64,000 nucleotides of DNA from Escherichia phage vB_EcoM_112: sequence record NC_024125.2; one strand, 5' to 3'. The notes beneath the pieces are model-generated. The model did not search any database. It saw nothing but the letters and a program-made list of their open reading frames with translations, and was not told the DNA's origin. Both the position numbers and the translations under genes were made by a program. Shown piece by piece: positions 1,232 to 54,849 of the stretch; position 1 is the first letter of the stretch, and every line of letters begins with the position of its first letter.

Positions 1232-1246
1232 TCTTTGACGATTTAA

Positions 1247-1275
1247 GGGACCTTCGGGTCCCTTTAGTTGTTTTT
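1247..1275 (+). terminator. Rho-independent terminator after gene 23
   Basis: GGGACCTTCGGGTCCC hairpin followed by T-rich tract. Confidence 0.75.
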
Positions 1276-1279
1276 ATGG

Positions 1280-1287
1280 TATAAATA
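1280..1287 (+). promoter_or_regulatory. Late promoter TATAAATA for gene 24
   Basis: Exact T4 late consensus ~28 nt upstream of the gene 24 ATG. Confidence 0.7.
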
Positions 1288-1314
1288 AATCATATAAACT
1301 GAAAGGAAAGCGCA

Positions 1315-5351: not shown

Positions 5352-6032
5352 TTATTTTAATGTTACGAAAGAAGAATTGCGTGTTTCACGAATTAAAACT
5401 GATCCATCACGATTAATGTAATAAATTAAGCTAAATAAAGTTTGGTGTGCTGACGCATGTTCAAAACTAGTTGGGTGAGATTTCCAATCCGGAGTTTCAG
5501 CAATCCATTGATAAATCCACCAAGGAACAGTACAGAATCCTGGATTTTTTCCAATCAGCTGAAGATTCGGACTAAAGTTTTCCGGAAGAGTAAATACAGA
5601 CGGCTTTTCAGATTCAACAATCTCAGCTACAGCCTGTTCGAATTTTTCTTCAACAAAAGGAGTATCTTCAATCAAAACTGAGGTATTTTCAGGAATTTTA
5701 TCCGTTTCTACTACTTCAATTTTAATGTCAGATTTAACCGGAGAATCAATCAGAAGTGCTGCTTCTGGATTGACTTCTTCATCGTCATATTTTAATCCCT
5801 CTGCGGCATCAGCAGCATCAATTAGGTCTTTAATAGATAACCCATCAGTCTCAGGCATAGGTTCACTAGCGAGCTTCTGGAGGGCTTCTTCAATATCAAT
5901 AACGATATTATCAAAAGATTTATTCTTTTTGACCTTTATACCAAACTGTTCAGCATATTCAGCTAATTTAGCCTTAGCTTCTTTATTATCATCAAGAGCC
6001 TTCAGCTCTGCAATATAATCTTTATCTATCAT
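5352..6032 (-). CDS. inh: Inh, inhibitor of prohead protease
   Basis: 226-aa acidic protein at T4 inh position between hoc and uvsW. Confidence 0.8.
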   Translation of the reverse strand: MIDKDYIAELKALDDNKEAKAKLAEYAEQFGIKVKKNKSFDNIVIDIEEALQKLASEPMPETDGLSIKDLIDAADAAEGLKYDDEEVNPEAALLIDSPVKSDIKIEVVETDKIPENTSVLIEDTPFVEEKFEQAVAEIVESEKPSVFTLPENFSPNLQLIGKNPGFCTVPWWIYQWIAETPDWKSHPTSFEHASAHQTLFSLIYYINRDGSVLIRETRNSSFVTLK

Positions 6033-6046
6033 AATATTTCCTCAGT

Positions 6047-6054
6047 ATAAATAT
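6047..6054 (+). promoter_or_regulatory. Late promoter TATAAATA upstream of uvsW
   Basis: Exact consensus ~29 nt upstream of ATG. Confidence 0.65.
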
Positions 6055-6082
6055 AGATATATTTATTACATGGTATTTAGAC

Positions 6083-7594
6083 ATGACTGACATTAAAGTA
6101 CATTTTTATGATTTTAGTCACGTGAGAATTGATTGTGAAGAAAGTACATTTCATGAACTCCGTGATTTCTTTAGCTTTGAAGCTGACGGGTATCGTTTTA
6201 ATCCGAAATACAAATATGGCCACTGGGATGGACGAATCCGTCTTTTAGATTATAATCGTCTTCTTCCATTTGGCTTAGTCGGGCAAATTAAAAAGTTCTG
6301 TGATAACTTTGGCTATAAAGCCTGGATTGACCCGCAAATTAATGAAAAAGAAGAATTATCAAGAAAAGATTTTGATGAATGGCTTTCTAAATTAGAAATC
6401 TATTCAGGAAATAAAAGAATTGAACCACACTGGTATCAAAAAGATGCAGTGTTCGAAGGATTAGTTAATCGTCGTAGAATTCTTAATCTTCCAACATCCG
6501 CTGGTAAATCGTTAATTCAAGCTTTGCTTGCGCGATATTATTTGGAAAATTATGAAGGTAAAATTCTTATCATTGTTCCAACAACTGCTCTGACAACTCA
6601 GATGGCTGATGACTTTGTTGACTATCGTTTATTCAGTCATGCAATGATAAAGAAAATTGGTGGCGGAGCATCAAAAGATGATAAATATAAAAATGATGCA
6701 CCAGTCGTTGTTGGTACATGGCAAACTGTAGTTAAACAACCAAAAGAATGGTTCTCACAGTTTGGAATGATGATGAATGATGAATGCCATCTTGCTACAG
6801 GAAAAAGTATTTCATCTATCATATCAGGTTTAAATAACTGTATGTTTAAATTTGGTCTATCAGGTTCATTACGTGATGGCAAAGCTAATATCATGCAGTA
6901 TGTTGGAATGTTTGGTGAAATATTTAAGCCAGTAACGACTTCTAAGTTAATGGAAGATGGGCAAGTAACTGAGTTAAAAATTAATAGTATTTTTCTTCGC
7001 TATCCCGATGAGTTCACTACTAAATTAAAGGGAAAAACTTACCAAGAAGAAATAAAAATTATTACTGGGCTCAGTAAAAGAAATAAATGGATCGCTAAAT
7101 TAGCTATTAAGCTTGCACAAAAAGATGAAAACGCTTTTGTCATGTTTAAACATGTATCACATGGTAAAGCTATTTTCGATTTAATTAAAAATGAATACGA
7201 TAAAGTTTATTACGTATCAGGGGAAGTTGATACCGAAACCCGCAATATAATGAAAACCTTAGCTGAAAATGGTAAAGGAATAATTATAGTAGCAAGTTAT
7301 GGTGTATTTTCTACTGGTATTTCAGTTAAAAATCTGCATCATGTTGTTTTAGCGCACGGTGTTAAATCAAAAATCATTGTATTACAAACAATCGGTCGTG
7401 TATTACGTAAGCATGGTTCTAAGACAATAGCAACTGTCTGGGACCTCATAGATGATTGTGGTGTTAAGCCAAAATCTGCTAATACGAAAAAGAAATATGT
7501 TCATTTGAACTATCTTTTAAAACACGGCATTGATCGTATTCAGCGCTACGCAGATGAAAAATTTAATTACGTAATGAAAACAGTTAATTTATAA
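6083..7594 (+). CDS. uvsW: UvsW DNA/RNA helicase (SF2)
   Basis: 503 aa; Walker A LPTSAGKS, DECH box (MMMNDECH), helicase C motifs; late promoter TATAAATA upstream. Confidence 0.92.
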   Translation: MTDIKVHFYDFSHVRIDCEESTFHELRDFFSFEADGYRFNPKYKYGHWDGRIRLLDYNRLLPFGLVGQIKKFCDNFGYKAWIDPQINEKEELSRKDFDEWLSKLEIYSGNKRIEPHWYQKDAVFEGLVNRRRILNLPTSAGKSLIQALLARYYLENYEGKILIIVPTTALTTQMADDFVDYRLFSHAMIKKIGGGASKDDKYKNDAPVVVGTWQTVVKQPKEWFSQFGMMMNDECHLATGKSISSIISGLNNCMFKFGLSGSLRDGKANIMQYVGMFGEIFKPVTTSKLMEDGQVTELKINSIFLRYPDEFTTKLKGKTYQEEIKIITGLSKRNKWIAKLAIKLAQKDENAFVMFKHVSHGKAIFDLIKNEYDKVYYVSGEVDTETRNIMKTLAENGKGIIIVASYGVFSTGISVKNLHHVVLAHGVKSKIIVLQTIGRVLRKHGSKTIATVWDLIDDCGVKPKSANTKKKYVHLNYLLKHGIDRIQRYADEKFNYVMKTVNL

Positions 7595-7607
7595 GGGCTT
7601 CGGCCCT

Positions 7608-7850
7608 TTGGAGAAAAAGATGTTACTAGAATTTAAACAATTTCTTTATGAAGCTTCTATTGATGAATTTATGGGTAAAATTGCCTCCTGTCAAACATTA
7701 GAAGGTTTAGAAGAACTTGAAGCTTATTATAAGAAAAGAGTTAAAGAAACTGAATTAAAAGATACTGATGACATCTCAGTCAGAGATGCTTTGGCAGGAA
7801 AAAGAGCTGAATTAGAAGATTCAGACGATGAAGTAGAAGAAAGCTTTTAA
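7608..7850 (+). CDS. uvsW.1: UvsW.1 small acidic protein
   Basis: 80-aa ORF immediately after uvsW, SD GGAG upstream; T4 synteny. Confidence 0.75.
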   Translation: MEKKMLLEFKQFLYEASIDEFMGKIASCQTLEGLEELEAYYKKRVKETELKDTDDISVRDALAGKRAELEDSDDEVEESF

Positions 7851-27358: not shown

Positions 27359-28764
<1,406 letters not shown>

Positions 28765-30196: not shown

Positions 30197-31784
<1,588 letters not shown>

Positions 31785-31811
31785 AATAAAATGGGCCTTA
31801 CGGCCCACTCC

Positions 31812-32314
31812 TTAAAAATATTTTTTAAAACTCATCATAACTTTATCATCAACATCATTATCAATCTGTGCAACAAGGTAAGATGACAGTTCTACTTCTT
31901 GTGGCGCGGATTGAACATTATCAGAATTAAGATATTCACGAATCCAAGGATACGGATGTTTAACCGGAGCATCGGTAATTGGGCATGGAAGACCACACTG
32001 TTTCATACGAGATACAGTTAAGTAATCAATAAAGCTCCACATGCTATTTGTATTTAATCCAGGAACATCGCCATCTTTAAATAAATGAACTGCCCAATCT
32101 TTTTCTTGGCGGTTAACTTCCATGAAAATATCAACTGCTTCTTGTTCACACTCTTGAGCAATTTTAACCCATTCATCGCCATCAGTGCCAAGTTGAAGTT
32201 GACGAATAATATATTGAGTGCCTTTAAGGTGAAGCTGCTCATCACGTGCAATGAACTTCATAATCTTGGCATTACCTTCCATGATTTCCATGTTCTTATG
32301 GAAGTTGAAAGTAC
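31812..32314 (-). CDS. nrdB: Ribonucleotide reductase beta subunit, exon 2
   Basis: MEIMEGNAKIMKFIARDEQLHLKGTQY aligns to E. coli NrdB [20 protein letters not shown]; exon start inferred at 32314 so that junction reads YVSFA-C-TFNF. Confidence 0.85.
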
Positions 32315-33405
32315 CGTTATGTTCGATTGAGCTCGCTAATTCTCAACCCGTTCTCTTATGAACTGCTACATATTACTATGCAGACCAGACTATATCACAA
32401 TCCCAGAGGGATTCTCCCCATTTCGAGTCGCTTGACCCTACGTCCGAAGACTAGTCGTTGAACCTTGCTTTGCAATTGTCGCCGTGCCATCGTTTATATG
32501 TTGATGGTGATAAATCTTTCTTATCACAATATGGACAATTCAATTGAATTCTATTTGGATTTAATTTACATCTGTCATTATGTTTTAGATAAAATCCAGG
32601 ACCTTTACCAATGTGACCGCAGAAATCACATGTGATTTCTTTTTGTGCAGGATGGGTCCCGTTCTTAACCATTTCTAATGTTTTTGCTGATGTTCTTTTC
32701 TTATGGTCTTCTGACAAGAAATGATGTGAACCGTCATTTACCCGTTTTGATTGAGTTTCTGACTGCATTTTACCACCGCAAAATACATGAGTACCTTCTT
32801 TTATAGCTGCAATATTGCGTTCTTTAACTTTTGCAATATGCTCAGCTTGTTGAAAATTATGTATACCTAATGCAACTCTATTTAAATTAGATTTACGCTG
32901 TATTTCACCATCTAAAAGATGAAATGTACCATTTTCTATCTTAGATTTAATAGAGGCAATATTTTTAGCTCGTACTTCAGGGATATTAAAAATCTGGATT
33001 TCTCTAGATTTTGCGGCTTTAGAAGCTAATTCAGAAATTTCTTCAGGAGAATATTTCATTCTAAGCTTTATAGCATGACAAGCCTGGTAATCTTTTTGAG
33101 CTAAATGTATATCATAATGTTCCTGTATAGAAAGGCACATCAAATTATCTAAATCATTATTTTCACGGTTACCGTCTTTATGATGGATTTCGTATGTTCT
33201 TCCATCAGAATCTTTAGGTATAGGTCCGTTAGCATCTATCCAAATTTTTCTATAGTTCAATTGTGCATCCTCTTAAAAGTATAATCATATTTATATTATA
33301 CTAATTAAAGGTGCAAGCAAAACCTTGGCTGCTAGTTTTCCTATAAAGGACTTTCCAGCAATTAAAGGAGTTTTCGATAAACGTTACCGTTTAAAGGCGC
33401 ATTTT
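32315..33405 (-). ncRNA. Group I self-splicing intron in nrdB (1091 nt) carrying I-TevIII ORF
   Basis: Interrupts conserved NrdB sequence; exon 1 ends in U, intron ends in G; joining restores conserved FYVSFAC; internal HNH ORF. Confidence 0.8.
32451..33260 (-). CDS. I-TevIII: HNH homing endonuclease, full length (I-TevIII-like)
   Basis: 269 aa; HNH motif EIHHKDGNRENNDLDNLMCLSIQEH; C-terminal Cys-rich zinc-finger-like region (CDFCGH...CPYCDKK). Confidence 0.82.
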   Translation of the reverse strand: MNYRKIWIDANGPIPKDSDGRTYEIHHKDGNRENNDLDNLMCLSIQEHYDIHLAQKDYQACHAIKLRMKYSPEEISELASKAAKSREIQIFNIPEVRAKNIASIKSKIENGTFHLLDGEIQRKSNLNRVALGIHNFQQAEHIAKVKERNIAAIKEGTHVFCGGKMQSETQSKRVNDGSHHFLSEDHKKRTSAKTLEMVKNGTHPAQKEITCDFCGHIGKGPGFYLKHNDRCKLNPNRIQLNCPYCDKKDLSPSTYKRWHGDNCKARFND

Positions 33406-34081
33406 ACGCAAAAGATACATAAAAACGAATAGCTTCTAAGGCATTAATAACGTGCAAACAGAGGTAAAGAGATTTCATTAAAGCACGTTTAGCTTCGGCT
33501 TCTTGCTTAATAGCTCGGTTTAAACGAAAGTCGGCATCAGGAGATTCTTTAGCTAGTTCTACAAATTCTTTAGCATTTTCCCATTCACGGGTTTTAACCA
33601 AGACATCATCATAATAGCGACCAATAGATTCAGCACGTTTCATGATAGCTTCATCTAATACAATCTCATCAAATACCTTTGACGGATCAGTATAAAGATT
33701 TCGCATGATATGTGTATATGAACGGCTGTGAATAGTTTCACTAAAAGTCCACGTAGCAATCCATGTATCAAGGCTTGGGTCTGAAATTAATGACATAAGT
33801 ACAGCAGATGGCGCACGACCCTGAATGCTATCCAAAAGTGATTGATACTTCAGATTATTAGTAAAAATATTTTGCTGATACTGAGGAAGCTTATTAAACT
33901 GTGCAGCATCCATCATCAAGTTTACTTCTTCAGGACGCCAGAAAAATGACAACTGCTTTTCGGTCAAATCTTCAAAAACTTTATGACGTTGAATATCATA
34001 ACGCGCAATACCAAGACCTGAACCAAAAAACATGGGTTCTTTTAAAACATCAACTGGATTTGTATTAAAAACTGTGCTCAT
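33406..34081 (-). CDS. nrdB: Ribonucleotide reductase beta subunit, exon 1
   Basis: 225 codons ending ...EAIRFYVSFA, matching class Ia R2 up to the conserved FYVSFA segment. Confidence 0.85.
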
Positions 34082-34132
34082 AAATTTTCCGCTTAGTTAA
34101 TAGTTGGTGACTCGTCCGTGAGTCAAATTATA

Positions 34133-35122
34133 TCATAATTTACAGGATGAACAATCTTCAGCTTTTGGAGTTTCTATTTCATAATCATCAGTACCAGAAC
34201 CATCACGGGTATTATGATAATAGAAATTTTTTCCGCCAAAATACCAGAAATACAAAAGGTCATCAATCATTATTGACATTGGAACCTTTCCTTTAGGGAA
34301 GATTTGGGGGTCATAGTATGTATTCGCTGAAGCTGATTGACATACCCATTTCAGCATAATAGCTACCTGCGTAAGATAAGGTTTATTACCTTTCTTAGCT
34401 AATTTCCATGTATAATCATAGAGGTCTATGTTATGCTCAATATTGGGCACGACTTGATTAAAGGAGCCCTCTTTTGATTCTTTAACAGAGACTGGTCCAC
34501 GTGGAGGCTCGATACCGTTTGTACTGTTAGAAACTTGGGAAGATGACTCACATGGCATAAGTGCTGATAATGTGCTATTACGGATGCCAAAGAGCTTAAG
34601 GTCTTCCCGCAGCGACGACCAGTCACAAACGTATTTTGGAGCTGCGATTTGGTCAATCTTTTTATTGTACCAGTCGATAGGTAGTTCGCCTCGAGACCAA
34701 CGAGTGTCTGAATAATATTCGCAAGGTCCTTTTTCTTTGGCGAGCTTAATGGATGCTTTAATGAGTCCATACTGTAATCTCTCAAATAGTTCATGTGTTA
34801 AATCGTTAGCATCTTCATAAGAAGCAAAGTTACTTGCCAGCCAAGCTGCATAGTTAGTAACACCTACACCAAGGTTTCGACGCTTTTTAGCTTTTTCTGC
34901 TTCAGGAACTGGATATCCTTGGTAATCCAAAAGATTATCAAGAGCACGAACTTGAACTTCTGCCAATTCATTAATTTTATCTTGGTCTTGCCAGTCAAAA
35001 TTATCTAGTACGAATGCAGAGAGAGTACAAAGCCCCACTTCTCCCTTGTTTTCAATAACTTTTATTGTAGTATACTCATCATCTTCGTAAAATTCATCTA
35101 CAAATTCATAATCAATATTCAT
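34133..35122 (-). CDS. nrdA: Ribonucleotide reductase alpha subunit, C-terminal piece (NrdA-b-like)
   Basis: 329 aa; from ...IENKGEVGLCTLSAF aligns to E. coli NrdA DENGEIALCTLSAF onward, including C-terminal CxxC (DCSSCKL); has its own ATG and a 22-aa non-homologous N-terminal extension. Confidence 0.85.
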   Translation of the reverse strand: MNIDYEFVDEFYEDDEYTTIKVIENKGEVGLCTLSAFVLDNFDWQDQDKINELAEVQVRALDNLLDYQGYPVPEAEKAKKRRNLGVGVTNYAAWLASNFASYEDANDLTHELFERLQYGLIKASIKLAKEKGPCEYYSDTRWSRGELPIDWYNKKIDQIAAPKYVCDWSSLREDLKLFGIRNSTLSALMPCESSSQVSNSTNGIEPPRGPVSVKESKEGSFNQVVPNIEHNIDLYDYTWKLAKKGNKPYLTQVAIMLKWVCQSASANTYYDPQIFPKGKVPMSIMIDDLLYFWYFGGKNFYYHNTRDGSGTDDYEIETPKAEDCSSCKL

Positions 35123-35960
35123 TTAATTCTTTTACCTTTTTTCTAGTAATTCCTAAAGCTTTAGATGCTCGATGTATTGATTGATATTCTATACCGTTTA
35201 TTTTTACAGCAATTAAGTTATGGGGTTTTAATCCCTTTGGATGAGGTTTACTGACGAAAACTAAATTATCAAGTTCTGAAATCTTATCCAATTTCTTACA
35301 CTTAAATCCTTTGTGATGCGACCGTTTACCTTTACAAACGGCTGACATTGCAGATGGATTTAAATTATGCTCTTTACAAAATTCGTTAAGACCTCGATGA
35401 ATTTCCTCATGACCATCCGGAAATGTAAACACCCAAGATGTTTGAAGTCGAGATTTAACTTCTGGAGACATAGGAATACCTTTGTTCCAAGCTGGTTTGC
35501 CTTTATTATTTTCAGATACAGAAATAGCCAATTTTCTTCTAAGCCACCCATGGCGTTTATTGGTGTTCTTTCGTTCAATATTATCTTCAGAATAAACACA
35601 CATCATATTAGCGGCAAATATCAATTTATGATTATTTGGATATATCTTTACTAATAATTGATGAGCTATGTAATGCTCTTCTGGTGTCAAATCTACCAGG
35701 TTTTCCTTTGTATCAGAACCACCAATACACAGAGGTATAATATGGTGTGATTCGGTATAGCAATCTAATTTTCTATTCTTAGCTTTAGAAATAAGGTTAT
35801 TGTAAATTTTAAAATAATCCATAACTTTTCCTCTTGTTATGGATTATTTATTAACGGTCTGTGTACTTTATTTGCTTTGAATTATACCGCCAGGATTAGC
35901 TTCATAAAACTTAGCTACATCCGACTTCTTAATTTTGATTAAACGGGTTTGTTGGCTATT
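35057..35960 (-). mobile_element. ~0.9 kb insertion carrying the HNH endonuclease gene that interrupts nrdA
   Basis: Boundaries defined by loss of NrdA homology: after ...CCEIAIPTNDV (35961) and before IENKGEVGLC (35056). Confidence 0.75.
35112..35822 (-). CDS. Free-standing HNH homing endonuclease inserted in nrdA (MobE-like)
   Basis: 236 aa; HNH motif ESHHIIPLCIGGSDTKENLVDLTPEEHYIAH; NUMOD-like GKPAWNKGIPMSPEVKSRL; C-terminal helix-turn-helix-like segment; own SD AGAGGAAAAG. Confidence 0.85.
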   Translation of the reverse strand: MDYFKIYNNLISKAKNRKLDCYTESHHIIPLCIGGSDTKENLVDLTPEEHYIAHQLLVKIYPNNHKLIFAANMMCVYSEDNIERKNTNKRHGWLRRKLAISVSENNKGKPAWNKGIPMSPEVKSRLQTSWVFTFPDGHEEIHRGLNEFCKEHNLNPSAMSAVCKGKRSHHKGFKCKKLDKISELDNLVFVSKPHPKGLKPHNLIAVKINGIEYQSIHRASKALGITRKKVKELNEY

Positions 35961-37301
35961 CACATCATTTGTTGGAATAGCAATTTCACAGCACAAGTTA
36001 CTCTGACGAATAGGTGCCTTTTCACGAATAAATGGAGTATAGTTATTCGTATTATCAATGAACTGCACATAAATCCTTGCTGTTCCTGAACGTTCAGTCA
36101 TGAGCAATTCAAATAGTTCACGGGCTTTAATACGCTTTTTACGAATATTAGGGTCTTTTTCTGCTGCTTCGTATAATTCACGGAAACGGTCTTGGTCTTT
36201 AAAATAAGAATAATAAAGCTCGCCACCCATTTCATGCGGACTGAACAAAGTAATGTAATCGTTCTTTCCGAATCGTTCCATCATCAAATCATTCAGTTGA
36301 ACACCATAATCCATATGACGAATGCGGTTTTCTTCTACGCCTTTGTTATTTTTCAAAACGAGAAGATTTTCAACTTCCAAATGCCAAATAGGATAATAAG
36401 CAGTAGCAGCGCCGCCACGAATTCCACCCTGTGAACATGATTTAACAGCAGTCTGAAAATGTTTCCAAAAAGGAATAACACCAGTATGGCGTACTTCACC
36501 CATGCCAATCTTAGAACCTTCAGCACGAATCATACCAACGTTAATACCAATTCCAGCGCGTTTAGAGATATATTCAACAATTGAAGCGGAAGCCTTATTG
36601 ATAGACTTCAATGAATCTCCTGCCTCAATAACAACACATGAACTAAACTGTCGAGTCGGAGTACGGCAACCAGCCATAATAGGAGTTGGCAATGAAATCT
36701 GTCGAGTAGATACTGCTTCATAAAAACGAATAACATGTTTTAATCTATCAACAGGTTCATCTTGATGCAATGCCATTCCAATAGTCATAAATGCAAACTG
36801 TGGAGTTTCATAAATTTGACCAGTGGTTTTATCTTTAACTAGATATTTTTCTTTTAATTGCATCGCCCCGGAATAAGTAAATTCCATATCCCGTTCGTGC
36901 TTAATTTTTGATTCTAAAAATGTAATTTCTTCTGCTGAATATTTTGACAATAATTCAGGGTCATATTTACCTTCATTTACACAGTAAGAAATATGGTCAA
37001 TAAATGAACGTGGTTCATACTGCCCATAAACATGCTTACGAAGAGCAAACATTAAACAGCGTGCAGCTACATATTGATAATCAGGTTCTTCAACCGAAAT
37101 AGAATTCGCAGCAGCCTTAATGACAATAGTCTGAATGTCATCAGTTGTCATTCCATCACGGAGATATGATTTAATATTTTCATATAATTCATAAGGATCT
37201 ACTGATGTTCCCTCAGCTGCCCAAGATAAAACTTTAATAATTTTTTGTGGGTCAAAGCTCTGAGAAACACCACTACTTTTGATAACATTAATTAATTGCA
37301 T
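35868..37301 (-). CDS. nrdA: Ribonucleotide reductase alpha subunit, N-terminal piece (NrdA-a-like)
   Basis: 477 aa; class Ia R1 homology through active-site region PIRQSNLCCEIAIPTNDV, then 30 non-homologous residues and a stop. Confidence 0.85.
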   Translation of the reverse strand: MQLINVIKSSGVSQSFDPQKIIKVLSWAAEGTSVDPYELYENIKSYLRDGMTTDDIQTIVIKAAANSISVEEPDYQYVAARCLMFALRKHVYGQYEPRSFIDHISYCVNEGKYDPELLSKYSAEEITFLESKIKHERDMEFTYSGAMQLKEKYLVKDKTTGQIYETPQFAFMTIGMALHQDEPVDRLKHVIRFYEAVSTRQISLPTPIMAGCRTPTRQFSSCVVIEAGDSLKSINKASASIVEYISKRAGIGINVGMIRAEGSKIGMGEVRHTGVIPFWKHFQTAVKSCSQGGIRGGAATAYYPIWHLEVENLLVLKNNKGVEENRIRHMDYGVQLNDLMMERFGKNDYITLFSPHEMGGELYYSYFKDQDRFRELYEAAEKDPNIRKKRIKARELFELLMTERSGTARIYVQFIDNTNNYTPFIREKAPIRQSNLCCEIAIPTNDVNSQQTRLIKIKKSDVAKFYEANPGGIIQSK

Positions 37302-37618
37302 AAGTCCTCAACTTGAAAATCGTCTTTAAACAATCGGTTAACTATATGAGCTATTATATCACCATGACACGGCTTTGGTTTACATGTGCATCCTAGCCTC
37401 ATTCCACGTAAAGGCTCTAAATGTGCTTTAGTTATTTCTCCGGATTTAATTCGACGTATAAAATCTTTTTTGAATAATTCAATGGCAGCCTCTCGGCTGC
37501 CAGCATCTTTACCGACGTAATTTCCCCAAAATGTACCACGGTGAATATTAACATCAAAGTCGGATTTATATTTATTCACTACCCGGCATAAACGGTCCGC
37601 GCGGTGATAATTCGGCAT
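37292..37618 (-). CDS. Hypothetical protein (nrdA.1 position)
   Basis: 108-aa ORF between td and nrdA. Confidence 0.6.
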
Positions 37619-37835
37619 ATTGTTTTTCCGTTAAAACAGTAATATCGTAGTAACAGTCAGAAGAAGTTTTAACTGTGGAAATTTTATTATCAAAATACTC
37701 ACGAGTCATTTTATGAGTATAATATTTTTTGCCATAAATGATAATAGGCTGATTTGGTCCTGGAACTTCTAACTCGCTTGGGTTAGGAAGTGTAAAAAGA
37801 ACTACACCAGAAGTGTCTTTAAATCGTAAAATCAT
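37572..37835 (-). CDS. Hypothetical protein (nrdA.2 position)
   Basis: 87-aa ORF; 5' part overlaps neighbour so the true start may be internal. Confidence 0.5.
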
Positions 37836-38143
37836 ATTGCCATTTTCCCTTTAATTGCTGGATGCGATTCATAATTTTCAAGGATAAAATCTTTCGGTTT
37901 CATGTATTCAGTTAACCAGTAAAGCTGTGTTTCGGTGTCACAATTTCCAAACTCTATAGGCCAATCAATTTTAAGTTCACACAGTTCTTTAGGCTCACGA
38001 CGTAAAATTTCTTTACATTGCTCAGTATGATTCATATAGATGTGAGTATTACCACCAGAAAATATCAAATCTCCTGGGATAAGATTACACATCTTAGCCA
38101 CAATATGTGTCAAGGCAGCGTACGAGGCAATGTTAAACGGTAG
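37832..38143 (-). CDS. td: Thymidylate synthase, exon 2
   Basis: [36 protein letters not shown] matches ThyA C-terminal half; exon start CTACCGTTTAAC follows intron 3' end ...CATAATG. Confidence 0.9.
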
Positions 38144-38585
38144 CATTATGTTCAGATAAGGTCGTTAATCTTACCCCGGAATTATATCCAGCTGCATGTC
38201 ACCATGCAGATCAGACTATATCTCCATCTTGATAAAGCAAGATGTCTATCGTTTCGAGTCACTTGACTCTACTCCCTAAAGGGATAGTCGTTAGGCATTT
38301 ATGTAGAACCAATTCCAGTTATCAGATTTTACACGATAAGTAACTAATCCAGACGAAATTTTAAAATGCCTCTTCCATCTCTTTTCAAAATCTTTAGCAC
38401 TTCCTACATATACTTTATTGTTTAAAGTATTTTTAATCTGATAAATTCCGCTTTTCATAAATACCTCTTTAAATATAGAAGTATTATTAAAGGGCAGTCC
38501 TACAATTTAGCACGGGATTGTCTACTAGAGAGGTTCCCCGTTTAGATAGATTACAAGTATAAGTCACCTTATACTCAGGCCTCAA
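38144..38585 (-). ncRNA. td group I intron, shortened (442 nt) by deletion within the I-TevI ORF
   Basis: 5' end TAATTGAGGCCTGAGTATAAGGTGACTTATACTTGTAATCTATCTAAACGGGGAACC and 3' end ...GGGGTAAGATTAACGACCTTATCTGAACATAATG match the T4 td intron as I recall it. Confidence 0.85.
38291..38458 (-). pseudogene. I-TevI: I-TevI remnant: in-frame fusion of N-terminal 34 and C-terminal 21 codons (55 aa)
   Basis: Hand-translated MKSGIYQIKNTLNNKVYVGSAKDFEKRWKRHFKISSGLVTYRVKSDNWNWFYINA; keeps GIY-YIG start and C-terminal tail but lacks catalytic and DNA-binding domains. Confidence 0.75.
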
Positions 38586-39960
<1,375 letters not shown>

Positions 39961-39970
39961 ATTATTTTCC

Positions 39971-40213
39971 TTAAACAGACTTTTTCACAATTTTCCAATC
40001 AGCTTTAAACTGATTAACATCAGAATGATAAATCCAGAATCCTGCGCTTTCTCCGTCTTCATAAAGAGGACACCCATCGCATTCATCTTCCCATCCCATA
40101 TCACGTAAAAGATGTTCAGCTTTTTCAACGAGCTCAGAATCTTTACCGATGATATTAAAATACCATTTACCTCTAACTTCTGAATCTTTGATGCTTTGGC
40201 GTTGTAATCTCAT
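39971..40213 (-). CDS. Hypothetical protein (frd.2 position; start moved to MRLQRQ)
   Basis: SD GAGGAG upstream of ATG at 40213; the longer track ORF would begin inside the early promoter at 40225-40256. Confidence 0.55.
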   Translation of the reverse strand: MRLQRQSIKDSEVRGKWYFNIIGKDSELVEKAEHLLRDMGWEDECDGCPLYEDGESAGFWIYHSDVNQFKADWKIVKKSV

Positions 40214-40224
40214 TTTATTCTCCT

Positions 40225-40256
40225 CATGTAGTTGATAGGGTAATAGTATCACACTA
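40225..40256 (-). promoter_or_regulatory. Early promoter GTTTAC...TACTAT with CTATCAACTAC leader
   Basis: Upstream of the frd.2 re-called start. Confidence 0.5.
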
Positions 40257-40271
40257 CTACCCTACTGTAAA

Positions 40272-40658
40272 CTACTTTTTGAAAGTTTTTCGCAAAAGTT
40301 CAATGATTTCATCTACATTGTTTTCGTCTACAATGCAGTGAATTTTTGTTACACCAGAAACTATACCTTCATTAGCGGATTGAGGCTTTTCTAAAGTTAC
40401 CTCAGTAAAGTATTTGAATTCTTCAGAGTAAATCTCAAAATACGTCTCAAGTGGGCCACCCGCCATGTATTCAGTGCCATCTTCCATAGTTACACGTACC
40501 ACACATTCACCAGCACAATCATCACTTTCCATTTCATCTACAACAAAACTAGGTCCGTGCTTCTCTATTAAATTTAGCATCATTACATTGCAACGGCACT
40601 CGTTAGCAAAGTCATTTTTAAATAAAGGGTTAATGATATAAGTTTTTCCAACTTCCAT
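40272..40658 (-). CDS. Hypothetical protein (frd.3 position)
   Basis: 128-aa ORF. Confidence 0.6.
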   Translation of the reverse strand: MEVGKTYIINPLFKNDFANECRCNVMMLNLIEKHGPSFVVDEMESDDCAGECVVRVTMEDGTEYMAGGPLETYFEIYSEEFKYFTEVTLEKPQSANEGIVSGVTKIHCIVDENNVDEIIELLRKTFKK

Positions 40659-40704
40659 TTTGATTTCCTCATTTTAACGGGGCTATCAAATAGCCCCTTG
40701 ATAA

Positions 40705-40932
40705 TTATTGTTCAATCAGTCCCATGTAAAATTCTGCGTCTTCAGAACCCATGTCATCACAATATTCATTAGCCATAAAGAGGGTGAGGTCTTCAAGAGG
40801 ACCTTTAATAACGATTTGAATACTCCAAAACTTAGAATCTTGCACGCTTGTGATACTAAGTTCAGGATAACGATTACGAATAATTTCTTCGATATATTCA
40901 AAATCAACGATGTCAATATCAACTTTAGCCAT
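40705..40932 (-). CDS. Hypothetical 75-aa acidic protein (start MAKVDIDIV)
   Basis: SD AAGAGGAAA upstream; early promoter cassette at 40976-41005. Confidence 0.55.
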
Positions 40933-40975
40933 ATTATTTTCCTCTTTAATCATCAGCAGTATTGCCGATAGTTGT

Positions 40976-41005
40976 ATAGTACCATGGAAGGACAAGGATG
41001 TAAAC
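40976..41005 (-). promoter_or_regulatory. Early promoter cassette (GTTTAC-18-TACTATAC) with A/T-rich UP element
   Basis: Shares ~75 bp with 58261-58336. Confidence 0.6.
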
Positions 41006-41036
41006 AGTTTTGTGAAAAAATTTTTGAAATAAAAAA

Positions 41037-41055
41037 GGGGACCTCTAGGGTCCCC
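41037..41055 (-). terminator. Hairpin terminator downstream of gene 32
   Basis: GGGGACCTCTAGGGTCCCC. Confidence 0.65.
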
Positions 41056-41077
41056 AATTAATTAGTAATATAATCTA

Positions 41078-41983
41078 TTAAAGGTCATTCAAAAGGTCAT
41101 CCAGGTCCGTGTCATCAGCACTAGATGAACTGCCAGAGCTTGAGCTCATAAAATCATCTTCAGTTTTTGTATTGAAGTCATCAACATTGAATGCATCCAA
41201 ATCATCAGCAACTTTATCAGCTTTCTTAGCAGCAGTTGCAGCGGCACCGCCCATCACAGCAGTTCCCATGACTTGACCGAATTTAGTATTCAGTTCTTCA
41301 AATGATTTGAATTTATCTTTAGAAGTCATTTCAGAAAGGTCAACCATTTGTTCGAACAGTTCTTTCTGGAAAGATTCATCGTCAATGTTTGGAATCGCAG
41401 ATTGATTCAGGAATTTAGATTCATCGTAGTTACTAAATCCAGAAACCTGTTTAACTTTCAGTACAAAGTTAGCACCTTCCCACGGACAAGTTACATCAAC
41501 TGGAGTTTCACCCATTTCAACATCAACTGCAATCATTGCATTGATTTTATCCCAGATTTTCTTACCGAAACGGTATTTAAATACTTTACCTTCATTTTCT
41601 GGAGCAGCTGGGTCTTTTACAACAAGAATGTTAGCCCAGTAAGAAGTTTTACGTTTAACAAGACCATACTCTTTATTGTCAGTGTTGTACAGATCATTTT
41701 TACTGATGTATTGACATACTGGGCAAGAATCGTAATCACCATGGGTAGATGAACATGTTTCAATATACCATTTACCATTTTTCTTGAAACCGTGATTTAC
41801 AAGAATTGCGAATGGTGCTTGTTCATCATTTTTAGACGGAAGAAAACGAATTACTGCTTGACCGTTACCCGCATTATCGAGTTTCAGTTTCCACTCGCCT
41901 TTATCTTCAGAAGAAAAACCTTTATTGCCATTCAGTTTAGCCATTTGTGCAGCAAGTTCAGCAGTAGATTTACGTTTAAACAT
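41078..41983 (-). CDS. 32: Single-stranded DNA-binding protein gp32
   Basis: 301 aa; matches remembered T4 gp32 incl. acidic Ser-rich C-terminus. Confidence 0.93.
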
Positions 41984-42042
41984 TTTATTTCCTTTTTAAT
42001 TTAATTTAATTTAATTAACAGTTGGTGCTATGACACTTTACC

Positions 42043-42675
42043 TCATAGCTGGCATAATTCGCAATACTCTGGGTCTTCGAGAGGTATCCAACCTGAGTTG
42101 AAATACTTTACCATCGATTTAGCAGTTGTATCAGTTATATTTATATTACCTTTAACTCTTCGCCATCCAGGAGTTTTACCGTACAGATTAGAGGATAATA
42201 ATAACACATAATTCTCGTAAGCAATATGAGATAATTTCCAAGACTCTATATTAGCTCGTGATGTTTTCCAAGGTCTAAAATCGTCACGGTTCATATAATT
42301 AGCCAATCTCATATGCTCTCTAACTTCCGGGTCTTTGGCTGGATGAGTTTCACCACTCACACCAAATCCACCACCAGCATATACCAGATTAAAATAGTCT
42401 GGATTATCTCTGGCATTTACTTCAAGTTGGTATTTTCGTTCTGCTTCAATAACATCCAAGTCATCATCAATTTGAATTATTTTAACGCTCGGTTTTTGAA
42501 GCATTAGCGCATTCAAAAATCTTTTTTGTTTACATGAGCTCCAGTATTCCTTTCCGGAAGAGTCATATATTATTCCGTTCTCAAATGAGCAATTTAATTT
42601 ACTACCGATATAGTAGTATGGCGGAGTCTTATTTTTGACACGGTCTTCAAATGTAAACCAATATACTATATTCAT
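42043..42675 (-). CDS. segG: GIY-YIG-type putative site-specific endonuclease between genes 32 and 59 (SegG-like)
   Basis: 210 aa; N-terminal IVYWFTF...YYYIGSKLN resembles GIY-YIG motif; position corresponds to T4 segG (formerly 32.1). Confidence 0.65.
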   Translation of the reverse strand: MNIVYWFTFEDRVKNKTPPYYYIGSKLNCSFENGIIYDSSGKEYWSSCKQKRFLNALMLQKPSVKIIQIDDDLDVIEAERKYQLEVNARDNPDYFNLVYAGGGFGVSGETHPAKDPEVREHMRLANYMNRDDFRPWKTSRANIESWKLSHIAYENYVLLLSSNLYGKTPGWRRVKGNINITDTTAKSMVKYFNSGWIPLEDPEYCELCQL

Positions 42676-42676
42676 A

Positions 42677-43330
42677 TCAATACTTACAAGATTTCACAGT
42701 TTCAATGAAAACATTTTTAGCTTTCTGTGAATCAATATTTAAAATTTTTCTATAAGCCTTTAACTTTATAGAATAATTATTCCAGACTAAATTATCAGTC
42801 TGTTCATCATGTTTATCAATTATATTTAAAAACGAATCAAGCAAGATAAACGTCTCAAACGAAATTATATTCGATTGTAGAAGTTTAAAAATATAACTTG
42901 ACTGAACCTTTGGATTATATTCAAAGATTTCTTTAAAAGCAGAAACTTCAACTTTTTTACTAAAATAATAAATGTTGCGAATATCTTCTTCAAACTTAAA
43001 TTTAATTTGCTTTAAGCGTCCGATATATTCACGATAAAACACAAGTGCATCAGCGTCAGAGATGTCACCAATCCAAGCATCTTGGTTAGCAACCAAATTA
43101 CTTATAAAAATTAAAGCAAGTTCCTTTAATTTATATTTTTCTGATAACTTCTGGAAAAAATACTTATCCCTTCGCTTTTGATAAGCGGCATCAGACACCC
43201 GCATGCACCAATTATACTTAATTACATCATACTTTCCATTCATATGCTGTTTTATCATTAAGTATAATTTATAAACTGATTTACCATCAATGTATCTTTC
43301 ACCACCAGCAGGCATGCGGAGTTTAATCAT
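42677..43330 (-). CDS. 59: gp59 helicase loader
   Basis: 217 aa (T4 gp59 length); synteny. Confidence 0.9.
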   Translation of the reverse strand: MIKLRMPAGGERYIDGKSVYKLYLMIKQHMNGKYDVIKYNWCMRVSDAAYQKRRDKYFFQKLSEKYKLKELALIFISNLVANQDAWIGDISDADALVFYREYIGRLKQIKFKFEEDIRNIYYFSKKVEVSAFKEIFEYNPKVQSSYIFKLLQSNIISFETFILLDSFLNIIDKHDEQTDNLVWNNYSIKLKAYRKILNIDSQKAKNVFIETVKSCKY

Positions 43331-50666: not shown

Positions 50667-54819
<4,153 letters not shown>

Positions 54820-54849
54820 TTTGAATAAATATCCTTAAAAGGAGGGTCT

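What the first reader, a model, noticed from the sequence alone, without database searches (positions are those of the whole stretch)
42043..42675. GIY-YIG endonuclease between genes 32 and 59, while the 23/24 and inh/uvsW junctions lack seg genes
A 210-aa ORF with a GIY-YIG-like N-terminus (IVYWFTF...YYYIGSK) occupies the 32/59 junction, the position of segG in T4. By contrast gene 23-24 (83 bp) and inh-uvsW (50 bp) are tightly spaced with no ORF, where T4 carries segD and segE as I recall. So this phage has a different complement of free-standing homing endonucleases than T4, consistent with independent gain and loss.
Basis: partly seen in the sequence, partly recalled or inferred. Interest (0 to 1): 0.4.

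Follow-up and report, generated by a model that had tools for sequence, protein, structure and literature searches.

The report
T4 segG homing endonuclease gene copy
The ORF between genes 32 and 59 is an exact copy of phage T4's well-studied selfish endonuclease gene segG, in a T4 relative that lacks T4's segD and segE, which is the ordinary and already documented patchy pattern for these mobile genes.

Summary
Window 42043-42675 (-) is an intact 210-aa ORF between gene 32 and gene 59. It is 100% nucleotide-identical to T4 segG. The 23/24 gap (83 bp) and the inh/uvsW gap (50 bp) are clean empty sites, where the T4 reference annotates segD and segE.

The window comes from a mosaic Tequatrovirus, 92-98% identical to T4 and matching no deposited genome. 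In about 500 close relatives, segG occurs in about 140, segD in 55 and segE in 159. Alleles in the 5' part of gene 32 travel with segG, as expected from SegG-driven co-conversion.

All of this is textbook T-even biology (Liu et al. 2003; Edgell et al. 2010), so it is already known and of low interest.

The most notable side observation is that nrdA here is split in two by a mobE-like HNH gene, as in Aeromonas phage Aeh1.

The parts
42043..42675 (-). segG (T4 gene 32.1): free-standing GIY-YIG homing endonuclease gene, 210 aa, intact
   Evidence: ORF. 100% nt identity to T4 segG. PHROG 7504 'homing endonuclease', E 1.3e-133, full length. tblastn with T4 SegG gives 210/210 identical.
42361..42675 (-). 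N-terminal catalytic domain of SegG (about residues 1-105), a divergent GIY-YIG fold: IVY(3-5), YIG(22-24), E79, N96
42046..42330 (-). C-terminal helical domain of SegG (about residues 116-210), putative DNA-binding domain after a low-confidence linker (about residues 101-115)
42138..42145 (-). TATAAATA late-promoter motif inside the 3' part of segG, about 155 nt upstream of the gene 32 start codon
   Evidence: Motif match. The motif alone is not enriched in the window (12 found, 9 expected). The sequence is identical to T4, where the middle and late promoters of gene 32 are reported to lie within segG (PMC2988022).
42479..42503 (-). Middle-promoter-like site inside segG: MotA-box-like TGCTTCA (42503-42497), a 12-nt spacer, then TAAAAT (42484-42479)
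   Evidence: Read directly from the sequence. The consensus is from general knowledge of T4 middle promoters. Function was not tested here.
41984..42042 (-). segG-32 intergenic region holding the gene 32 translational operator; four TTTAA repeats here versus three in T4 and two in most relatives
   Evidence: Alignment of 14 phages. Homology with segG-less genomes resumes at CCTCATAGCTGG (42044-42055), so the last codons and the stop codon of segG lie in sequence shared with empty sites. This was noted for T4 in PMC535899.
41078..41983 (-). Gene 32 (ssDNA-binding protein, 301 aa), the published cleavage target of SegG; its 5' part (about 41757-41954) carries the alleles linked to segG
   Evidence: Pfam gp32. 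Target assignment from PMC2988022 Table 1. Sites 41757, 41917 (3-nt indel), 41927, 41931-32 and 41954 associate with segG presence across 8 segG+ and 6 segG- genomes. No such sites occur in gene 59.
42677..43330 (-). Gene 59 (helicase loader); its stop codon lies 1 nt before the segG ATG, and segG has no obvious Shine-Dalgarno sequence
   Evidence: Pfam T4_Gp59_N and T4_Gp59_C; sequence.
1232..1314 (+). Empty 23/24 junction with no segD: terminator hairpin GGGACCTTCGGGTCCC (1247-1262) and TATAAATA (1280-1287) ahead of gene 24
   Evidence: Nearly identical to the empty junction of Shigella phage SH7. In T4, 789 bp including segD replace 60 bp here.
6033..6082 (+). Empty inh/uvsW junction with no segE: TATAAATA (6046-6053) ahead of uvsW
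   Evidence: Identical to T4 up to ...TATTAC, then runs directly into uvsW (MTDIKV). In T4, 635 bp including segE are inserted here.

Best explanation
The ORF is segG, a free-standing homing endonuclease gene of the T-even phages. It sits in a mosaic Tequatrovirus that is not T4.

Protein (inferred here, shown for T4 in the literature). SegG has an N-terminal GIY-YIG-type catalytic domain (about residues 1-105), a flexible linker, and a C-terminal helical DNA-binding domain.

Mechanism (established for the identical T4 protein, inferred for this phage). In a cell co-infected with a segG-less relative of the T2 type, SegG makes a double-strand break inside that phage's gene 32, a few hundred bp from the 32/59 junction. 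Phage recombination then repairs the break using the segG+ genome as template. This copies segG together with the adjacent 5' part of gene 32 into the recipient. The outcome is called marker exclusion or co-conversion.

Retention. The gene is transcribed with gene 59 and starts 1 nt after the gene 59 stop codon. Promoters for the essential gene 32 lie inside it, which disfavours deletion.

Other junctions. The 23/24 and inh/uvsW junctions are simply unoccupied alleles of two other mobile-gene sites, segD and segE. Each seg gene spreads and is lost independently, so every T4 relative carries its own subset.
For: Identity and position:
- 100% nt identity to T4 segG, between 32 and 59.

Endonuclease family:
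- PHROG homing-endonuclease family, E 1.3e-133.
- hhalign to the T4 GIY-YIG enzymes, E 2.7e-5, aligning IVY with GIY, YIGS with YVGS, E79 with E75, and N96 with N90. These residues are invariant in 26 family members.

Mobility signature:
- The gene is present in 139 of about 497 records that are at least 95% identical across 32-59.
- Insertion boundaries against the T2-type empty site are precise.
- segG-linked alleles occur only on the gene 32 side, within about 300 bp.
- segG and the adjacent 263 bp of gene 32 have zero differences from T4, while the surrounding 10 kb is 94% identical.

Literature:
- SegG is an active GIY-YIG enzyme that targets gene 32 and excludes T2 gene 32. The gene 32 promoters lie inside segG. 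T4 is an outlier in its number of these genes (PMC2988022, PMC2330249, PMC535899).

Empty sites:
-.
Against: - Standard family searches do not recognise a GIY-YIG domain. Pfam PF01541 and NCBIfam give no hit even at E<=1-10. PDB phmmer gives nothing relevant. Only 1 of 26 family members gives a weak SegE_GIY-YIG hit, E 0.035.
- Foldseek against PDB ranks I-TevI first but non-significantly (E 1.3).
- The GIY-to-YIG spacing is 16 residues, longer than in I-TevI.
- No invariant Arg could be aligned with I-TevI R27.
- No activity, expression or homing was or could be tested for this phage.
- The allele association rests on 14 related genomes without phylogenetic correction. No site in gene 32 is perfectly fixed between the segG+ and segG- groups.
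Confidence: 0.93

Rival explanations
1. The ORF is kept only as a passive carrier of the gene 32 promoters and operator. It would be a domesticated or inactive remnant that no longer works as a mobile endonuclease in this phage.
For: The middle and late promoters of gene 32 lie inside segG, and this arrangement is said to favour retention (PMC2988022). A TATAAATA motif lies at 42138-42145. segG has no recognisable ribosome-binding site. The review also reports RNase E processing that lowers segG transcript levels.
Against: The ORF is intact and identical to the T4 gene, whose product is an active endonuclease that homes at high frequency in T4 x T2 crosses. Catalytic-motif residues are invariant across relatives down to about 30% identity. 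That indicates selection on the protein and not only on the DNA. The patchy distribution and the linked gene 32 alleles fit ongoing mobility.
Confidence: 0.04
2. The N-terminal domain is not a GIY-YIG nuclease but an unrelated fold that happens to contain IVY...YIG-like residues.
For: There are no Pfam, NCBIfam or PDB sequence hits. Foldseek E is 1.3. The hhalign probability is only 74.5%. The motif spacing is atypical.
Confidence: 0.03
3. The ancestor of this phage carried segD and segE and lost them, instead of never acquiring them. Under this reading the difference from T4 is loss only, not independent gain and loss.
For: Neither direction can be read from one genome. Homologous recombination with an empty allele would erase a seg gene without a scar. 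segD is rare (55 records) and is thought to be poorly expressed, so loss is plausible.
Against: Both junctions are clean. They are nearly identical to the empty alleles of other phages such as SH7 and contain no seg remnants. In contrast, the I-TevI deletion in this same window left both ORF ends behind. T4 is the outlier in gene number, so absence is the commoner state.
Confidence: 0.3

Closest known systems
Phage T4 SegG (gene 32.1; NP_049855; Liu, Belle, Shub, Belfort & Edgell 2003, J Mol Biol 334:13)
   Same: The 633-nt gene and 210-aa protein are identical. The position between genes 32 and 59 is the same. So are the embedded late-promoter motif and the junction sequence with the gene 32 operator.
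   Different: The genomic background differs. Flanks are 92-98% identical to T4. The operator has one more TTTAA repeat. The rest of the homing-endonuclease set differs: no segD, segE, mobE or I-TevI; an intact I-TevIII; and a mobE-like gene inside nrdA.
I-TevI catalytic domain (PDB 1LN0), the prototype of the GIY-YIG homing endonucleases
   Different: Identity is only about 11-17%. It is not detected by Pfam PF01541. There are 16 residues between the two motifs. No aligned equivalent of R27 was found. SegG is free-standing, not intron-encoded, and its C-terminal domain is different.
T4 SegD and SegE (free-standing GIY-YIG genes at the 23/24 and inh/uvsW junctions)
   Same: They are the same kind of element, with the same patchy distribution among Tequatroviruses: 55 and 159 records.
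   Different: Both are absent from this window, and both junctions are clean empty alleles. Unlike SegG, both are recognised by the Pfam GIY-YIG and SegE_GIY-YIG models.
T2-type empty 32/59 junction (T2, RB14, CM8 and others)
   Same: The flanking genes 32 and 59 are 96-98% identical, and the gene 32 operator is shared.
   Different: About 99 bp separate genes 59 and 32 instead of 633 bp of segG plus 59 bp. gp32 is 302 aa instead of 301, and the 5' gene 32 alleles differ.

Membership tests
SegG orthologue (T4 gene 32.1) | Sequence identity to T4 SegG over the full length | tested here: met
   633/633 nt and 210/210 aa identical.
SegG orthologue (T4 gene 32.1) | Located between gene 59 and gene 32, in the same orientation as both | tested here: met
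SegG orthologue (T4 gene 32.1) | Site-specific double-strand cleavage within gene 32 of segG-less phages | not testable with these tools
   Reported for T4 SegG in the literature. Inferred here from protein identity.
GIY-YIG nuclease superfamily | Match to the curated family model (Pfam PF01541 or PF19835) | tested here: not met
   No hit at E<=1 for this protein. Among 26 relatives there was one weak PF19835 hit, E 0.035. Controls: I-TevI, SegA, SegD and SegE hit, while SegF does not.
GIY-YIG nuclease superfamily | The two N-terminal motifs (GIY ... YIG) with conserved tyrosines | tested here: met
   I3-V4-Y5 and Y22-I23-G24. Y22, I23 and G24 are invariant and Y5 is at least 90% conserved in 26 sequences. 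They align with the I-TevI motifs. The 16-residue spacing is longer than in I-TevI.
GIY-YIG nuclease superfamily | Conserved catalytic Glu and Asn downstream (I-TevI E75 and N90) | tested here: met
   E79 and N96 are invariant. hhalign aligns them to E75 and N90.
GIY-YIG nuclease superfamily | Conserved Arg after the YIG motif (I-TevI R27) | tested here: inconclusive
   The I-TevI R27 segment falls in an unaligned insert. In the SegG family, R12 and K26 are invariant, but R52 is not.
GIY-YIG nuclease superfamily | GIY-YIG alpha/beta fold | tested here: met
Free-standing homing endonuclease gene (functional class) | Presence/absence polymorphism at one conserved locus among close relatives, with precise boundaries | tested here: met
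   139 of about 497 records (at least 95% identical) carry it. Boundaries against six empty-site genomes are precise.
Free-standing homing endonuclease gene (functional class) | Co-conversion of flanking markers between the gene and its cleavage site | tested here: inconclusive
   Alleles at 41757-41954 in gene 32 associate with segG, and none do in gene 59. The sample is 14 genomes with no correction for relatedness. Nucleotide diversity inside segG is not clearly lower than in the flanks.
Free-standing homing endonuclease gene (functional class) | Endonuclease-dependent super-Mendelian inheritance in mixed infection | not testable with these tools
   Shown for T4 x T2 in the literature.

The most novel reading that the evidence does not exclude
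The window may come from an undescribed mosaic Tequatrovirus that acquired a T4-identical segG recently by natural homing. On this reading the segG-linked haplotype in the 5' part of gene 32 (about 300 bp, gene 32 side only) is a footprint in nature of SegG co-conversion from its distant cleavage site. In addition, the SegG family would be a GIY-YIG clade invisible to the curated models, with unusual motif spacing, possibly a Lys or other residue in place of the canonical Arg, and swappable C-terminal DNA-binding domains.
Probability: 0.35. Interest if true: 0.2.

Novelty: already known. Interest (0 to 1): 0.08.

Why it matters
It matters little beyond correct annotation. SegG, its target (gene 32), marker exclusion, and the variable seg/mob content of T4 relatives were described between 1992 and 2010.

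Three points have practical value:
- This ORF should be annotated as segG, even though Pfam and NCBIfam give no domain.
- Standard HMM libraries miss the SegG and SegF branches of the GIY-YIG family.
- In a mixed infection this phage should impose its gene 32 region on segG-less relatives. It should in turn be a recipient for segE, and possibly segD, from T4-type phages.

Tried and rejected
- Single-sequence AF2 of the ORF gave an unusable model (pLDDT 31). It was replaced by a model built from the 26-sequence alignment (pLDDT 91).
- Pfam, NCBIfam and PDB phmmer gave nothing for the GIY-YIG question.
- The original SegG paper (PMID 14596796) is not held. The exact cleavage coordinate (about 332 bp from the insertion site, from my memory of the abstract) could therefore not be verified or mapped onto the window.
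- I tested whether nucleotide diversity is depressed inside segG relative to its flanks. No clear depression appeared, so I make no 'recent sweep' claim on that basis.
- I looked for alleles in gene 32 perfectly fixed between segG+ and segG- genomes, as candidates for target-site immunity. None were found. The apparently fixed sites lie in the intergenic boundary or are alignment artefacts.
- Rfam at gathering threshold found no intron in 31000-43000. The td intron appears only below threshold.
- The TATAAATA motif count in the window is not above chance, so the promoter assignment rests on identity with T4, not on the scan.
- I considered whether the window is T4 itself and rejected it. Identity is 92-98% with many indels, and no deposited genome matches better than about 97% over 12-20 kb.

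Full report
**What is at the coordinates**

Window 42043-42675 (minus strand) is an intact 210-aa ORF starting MNIVYWFTFEDRVKNKTPPYYYIGSK. Downstream on the same strand lies gene 32 (41078-41983; Pfam gp32, E 1.3e-66). Upstream lies gene 59 (42677-43330; both Pfam Gp59 domains), followed by gene 33. The ORF's DNA is 100% identical over all 633 nt to segG of phage T4 (NC_000866.4 147909-148541) and to segG in many T4-like records. In all, 140 phage records carry it at 95% identity or more, 117 of them at 99% or more. The T4 annotation places SegG between 32 and 59. The ORF is therefore segG, not merely something segG-like.

**The two 'empty' junctions**

A blastn comparison of the window with T4 102000-168903 shows collinearity at 92-98% identity. 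This lets the genes be named.
- Gene 23 ends at 1231 and gene 24 starts at 1315, an 83-bp gap.
- inh occupies 5352-6032 (-) and uvsW starts at 6083, a 50-bp gap.

T4 has segD (106561-107232, antisense) in the first gap and segE (112057-112674) in the second.

At the sequence level, 60 bp here replace 789 bp of T4 at the 23/24 junction. These 60 bp hold a terminator hairpin at 1247-1262 and a TATAAATA at 1280-1287. At the inh/uvsW junction, 19 bp replace 635 bp of T4. Both junctions are nearly identical to the empty junctions of Shigella phage SH7. tblastn with T4 SegA, SegD, SegE and SegF finds no remnant anywhere in the window.

**Is it a GIY-YIG enzyme?**

Standard searches fail:
- Pfam gives no family at E<=1.
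- NCBIfam gives none at E<=10.
- phmmer against all PDB sequences gives nothing relevant.
- None of 28 database homologues has a precomputed Pfam domain.
- Of 26 family members scanned individually, one gives a weak SegE_GIY-YIG hit at E 0.035.

As controls, the Pfam GIY-YIG models do hit T4 I-TevI, SegA, SegD and SegE but miss SegF. A miss is therefore not diagnostic.

More sensitive tests succeed:
- An alignment of 26 relatives down to about 30% identity has invariant R12, P19, Y22-I23-G24-S25-K26, C29, Y44, S47, E79, N96 and A100, with Y5 at 90% or more.
- hhalign of this profile against the six T4 GIY-YIG enzymes gives probability 74.5% and E 2.7e-5. It aligns IVY to GIY, YIGS to YVGS, E79 to I-TevI E75, and N96 to N90.
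- An AF2 model built from the alignment has pLDDT 91.3. It shows an alpha/beta N-terminal domain, a low-confidence linker around residues 101-115, and a helical C-terminal domain.
- Foldseek also ranks I-TevI first, but non-significantly (E 1.3).

An equivalent of I-TevI R27 could not be identified. The literature lists SegG among the experimentally active GIY-YIG enzymes.

My conclusion is that this is a divergent GIY-YIG member. That is supported by profile, fold and motif evidence, but not by the curated HMMs.

**What the phage is**

No deposited genome matches the window better than about 97% over 12-20 kb. It is a mosaic Tequatrovirus, not T4.

Around segG the match to T4 is perfect from 42000 to 42685 and again from 41691 to 41953. 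The only differences in between lie in the A/T-rich gene 32 operator. The 10-kb block containing this region is 94% identical overall.

**Population context**

A 2253-bp query spanning 32-segG-59 finds about 497 records at 95% identity or more. Of these, 139 contain segG. The rest, including T2 and RB14, align in two pieces with about 99 bp between genes 59 and 32. segD is present in 55 records and segE in 159. Since 139 exceeds 55, at least 85 segG+ records lack segD, so the window's combination is common.

The review already states that T4, with 15 such genes, is an outlier and that relatives have few. A 2023 paper repeats the point (PMC10448857).

**Anatomy of the insertion and footprint of the mechanism**

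I aligned eight segG+ genomes and six segG- genomes. Homology with empty sites resumes at CCTCATAGCTGG (42044-42055). The last codons and the stop codon of segG therefore lie in sequence shared with empty sites. This was noted for T4 by Borjac-Natour et al. (PMC535899).

Variable sites associated with segG presence all lie on the gene 32 side, within about 300 bp of the junction. They are 41757, a 3-nt indel at 41917 (giving gp32 of 301 versus 302 aa), 41927, 41931-32 and 41954. There are none in gene 59. The window carries the T4-type allele at each of these sites except 41954.

This one-sided, decaying linkage is what co-conversion from a cleavage site inside gene 32 predicts. However, it rests on only 14 related genomes, no site is perfectly fixed, and nucleotide diversity inside segG is not clearly lower than outside. 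I therefore rate it as suggestive only.

**Regulatory features**

These were read from the sequence and are identical to T4.
- The segG ATG lies 1 nt after the gene 59 stop codon, with no Shine-Dalgarno sequence.
- A TATAAATA late-promoter motif lies at 42138-42145.
- A MotA-box-like TGCTTCA followed by TAAAAT lies at 42503-42479, inside segG.

These fit the published statement that the gene 32 middle and late promoters are embedded in segG, which disfavours deletion. The motif scan itself is not above chance.

**Mechanism**

The mechanism is shown for the identical T4 protein in the literature and inferred for this phage. In a mixed infection, SegG cuts gene 32 of a segG-less co-infecting relative. 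Recombinational repair then copies segG and the neighbouring gene 32 sequence from the donor genome. The empty segD and segE sites imply that this phage would be a recipient for those elements from T4-type phages.

**Verdict**

The content is established T-even biology, so novelty is 'already known' and interest is low.

**Other differences from T4 in the same window**

These are recorded as side observations.
- I-TevIII is full length (269 aa).
- The td group I intron has lost 570 bp of the I-TevI ORF.
- mobE and nrdB.1 are absent from the nrdA/nrdB junction.
- A MobE homologue (45% identity) sits inside nrdA. It splits nrdA between the NLCCEI and GLCTLSAF active-site segments. NrdA-a ends in a basic tail and NrdA-b begins with an acidic tail. 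This is the arrangement studied in Aeromonas phage Aeh1 (PMC3045599).

Noticed in passing
window 34133-37301 (-): NrdA-a 35868..37301, HNH ORF 35112..35822, NrdA-b 34133..35122: nrdA is in two pieces, split by a 236-aa HNH gene that is 45% identical to T4 MobE (E 4e-31). The split falls between the NLCCEI and GLCTLSAF active-site segments. NrdA-a ends in a basic tail (RLIKIKKSDVAK...) and NrdA-b begins with an acidic tail (DYEFVDEFYEDDEY). The position and the charge-complementary tails match the mobE-split RNR of Aeromonas phage Aeh1, which a 2010 paper described as the only such case (PMC3045599). Thirty-three phage records carry this 924-bp insert. I did not test whether it is homologous to the Aeh1 event or independent.
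   Followed up: partly
window 34082-34136: T4's nrdB.1 and the intergenic mobE (about 700 bp) are absent from the nrdA/nrdB junction. Only 55 bp remain.
   Followed up: partly
window 32451-33260 (-): The nrdB intron carries a full-length 269-aa I-TevIII (Pfam HNH_3, E 6e-13). T4 has only a truncated 97-aa version. The window has about 476 bp that T4 lacks.
   Followed up: partly
window 38144-38585 (-): A td group I intron is present (Rfam RF00028, 40 bits, E 1.4e-8, below the gathering score of 50). The I-TevI ORF has a 570-bp in-frame deletion, and only residues 1-33 and 220-245 remain.
   Followed up: partly
window 28450-28764 (-): An extra 104-aa ORF lies between pseT and pseT.1. It has no counterpart in T4 and no significant Pfam family.
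   Followed up: no
window 41984-42042: The gene 32 translational operator has four TTTAA repeats. T4 has three and most relatives have two. Phage TadeuszReichstein shares the four-repeat form.
   Followed up: no
window 50834-54824 (ORFs 50667..54011 and 54013..54819): The distal part of gene 37 and all of gene 38 have no nucleotide similarity to T4. The gene 38 ORF is 268 aa here against 183 aa in T4, which suggests a T2-type adhesin and not the T4-type assembly chaperone. This was not verified.
   Followed up: no
alignment A1 (relatives of SegG, e.g. P0014, P0016, P0017, P0020-P0022, P0025, P0028, P0029): Some relatives share the SegG N-terminal domain (about 50-56% identity over the first 110 residues) but have a different C-terminal region with a CxxC...HxxxC motif or NUMOD modules. 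The DNA-binding domain has been swapped within this family.
   Followed up: no
window 6083-7850: uvsW is a 503-aa ORF followed by a separate 80-aa ORF (7608..7850). The T4 RefSeq record annotates a single 587-aa UvsW and flags sequence discrepancies there. The window's UvsW also starts MTDIKV, against MDIKV in T4.
   Followed up: no
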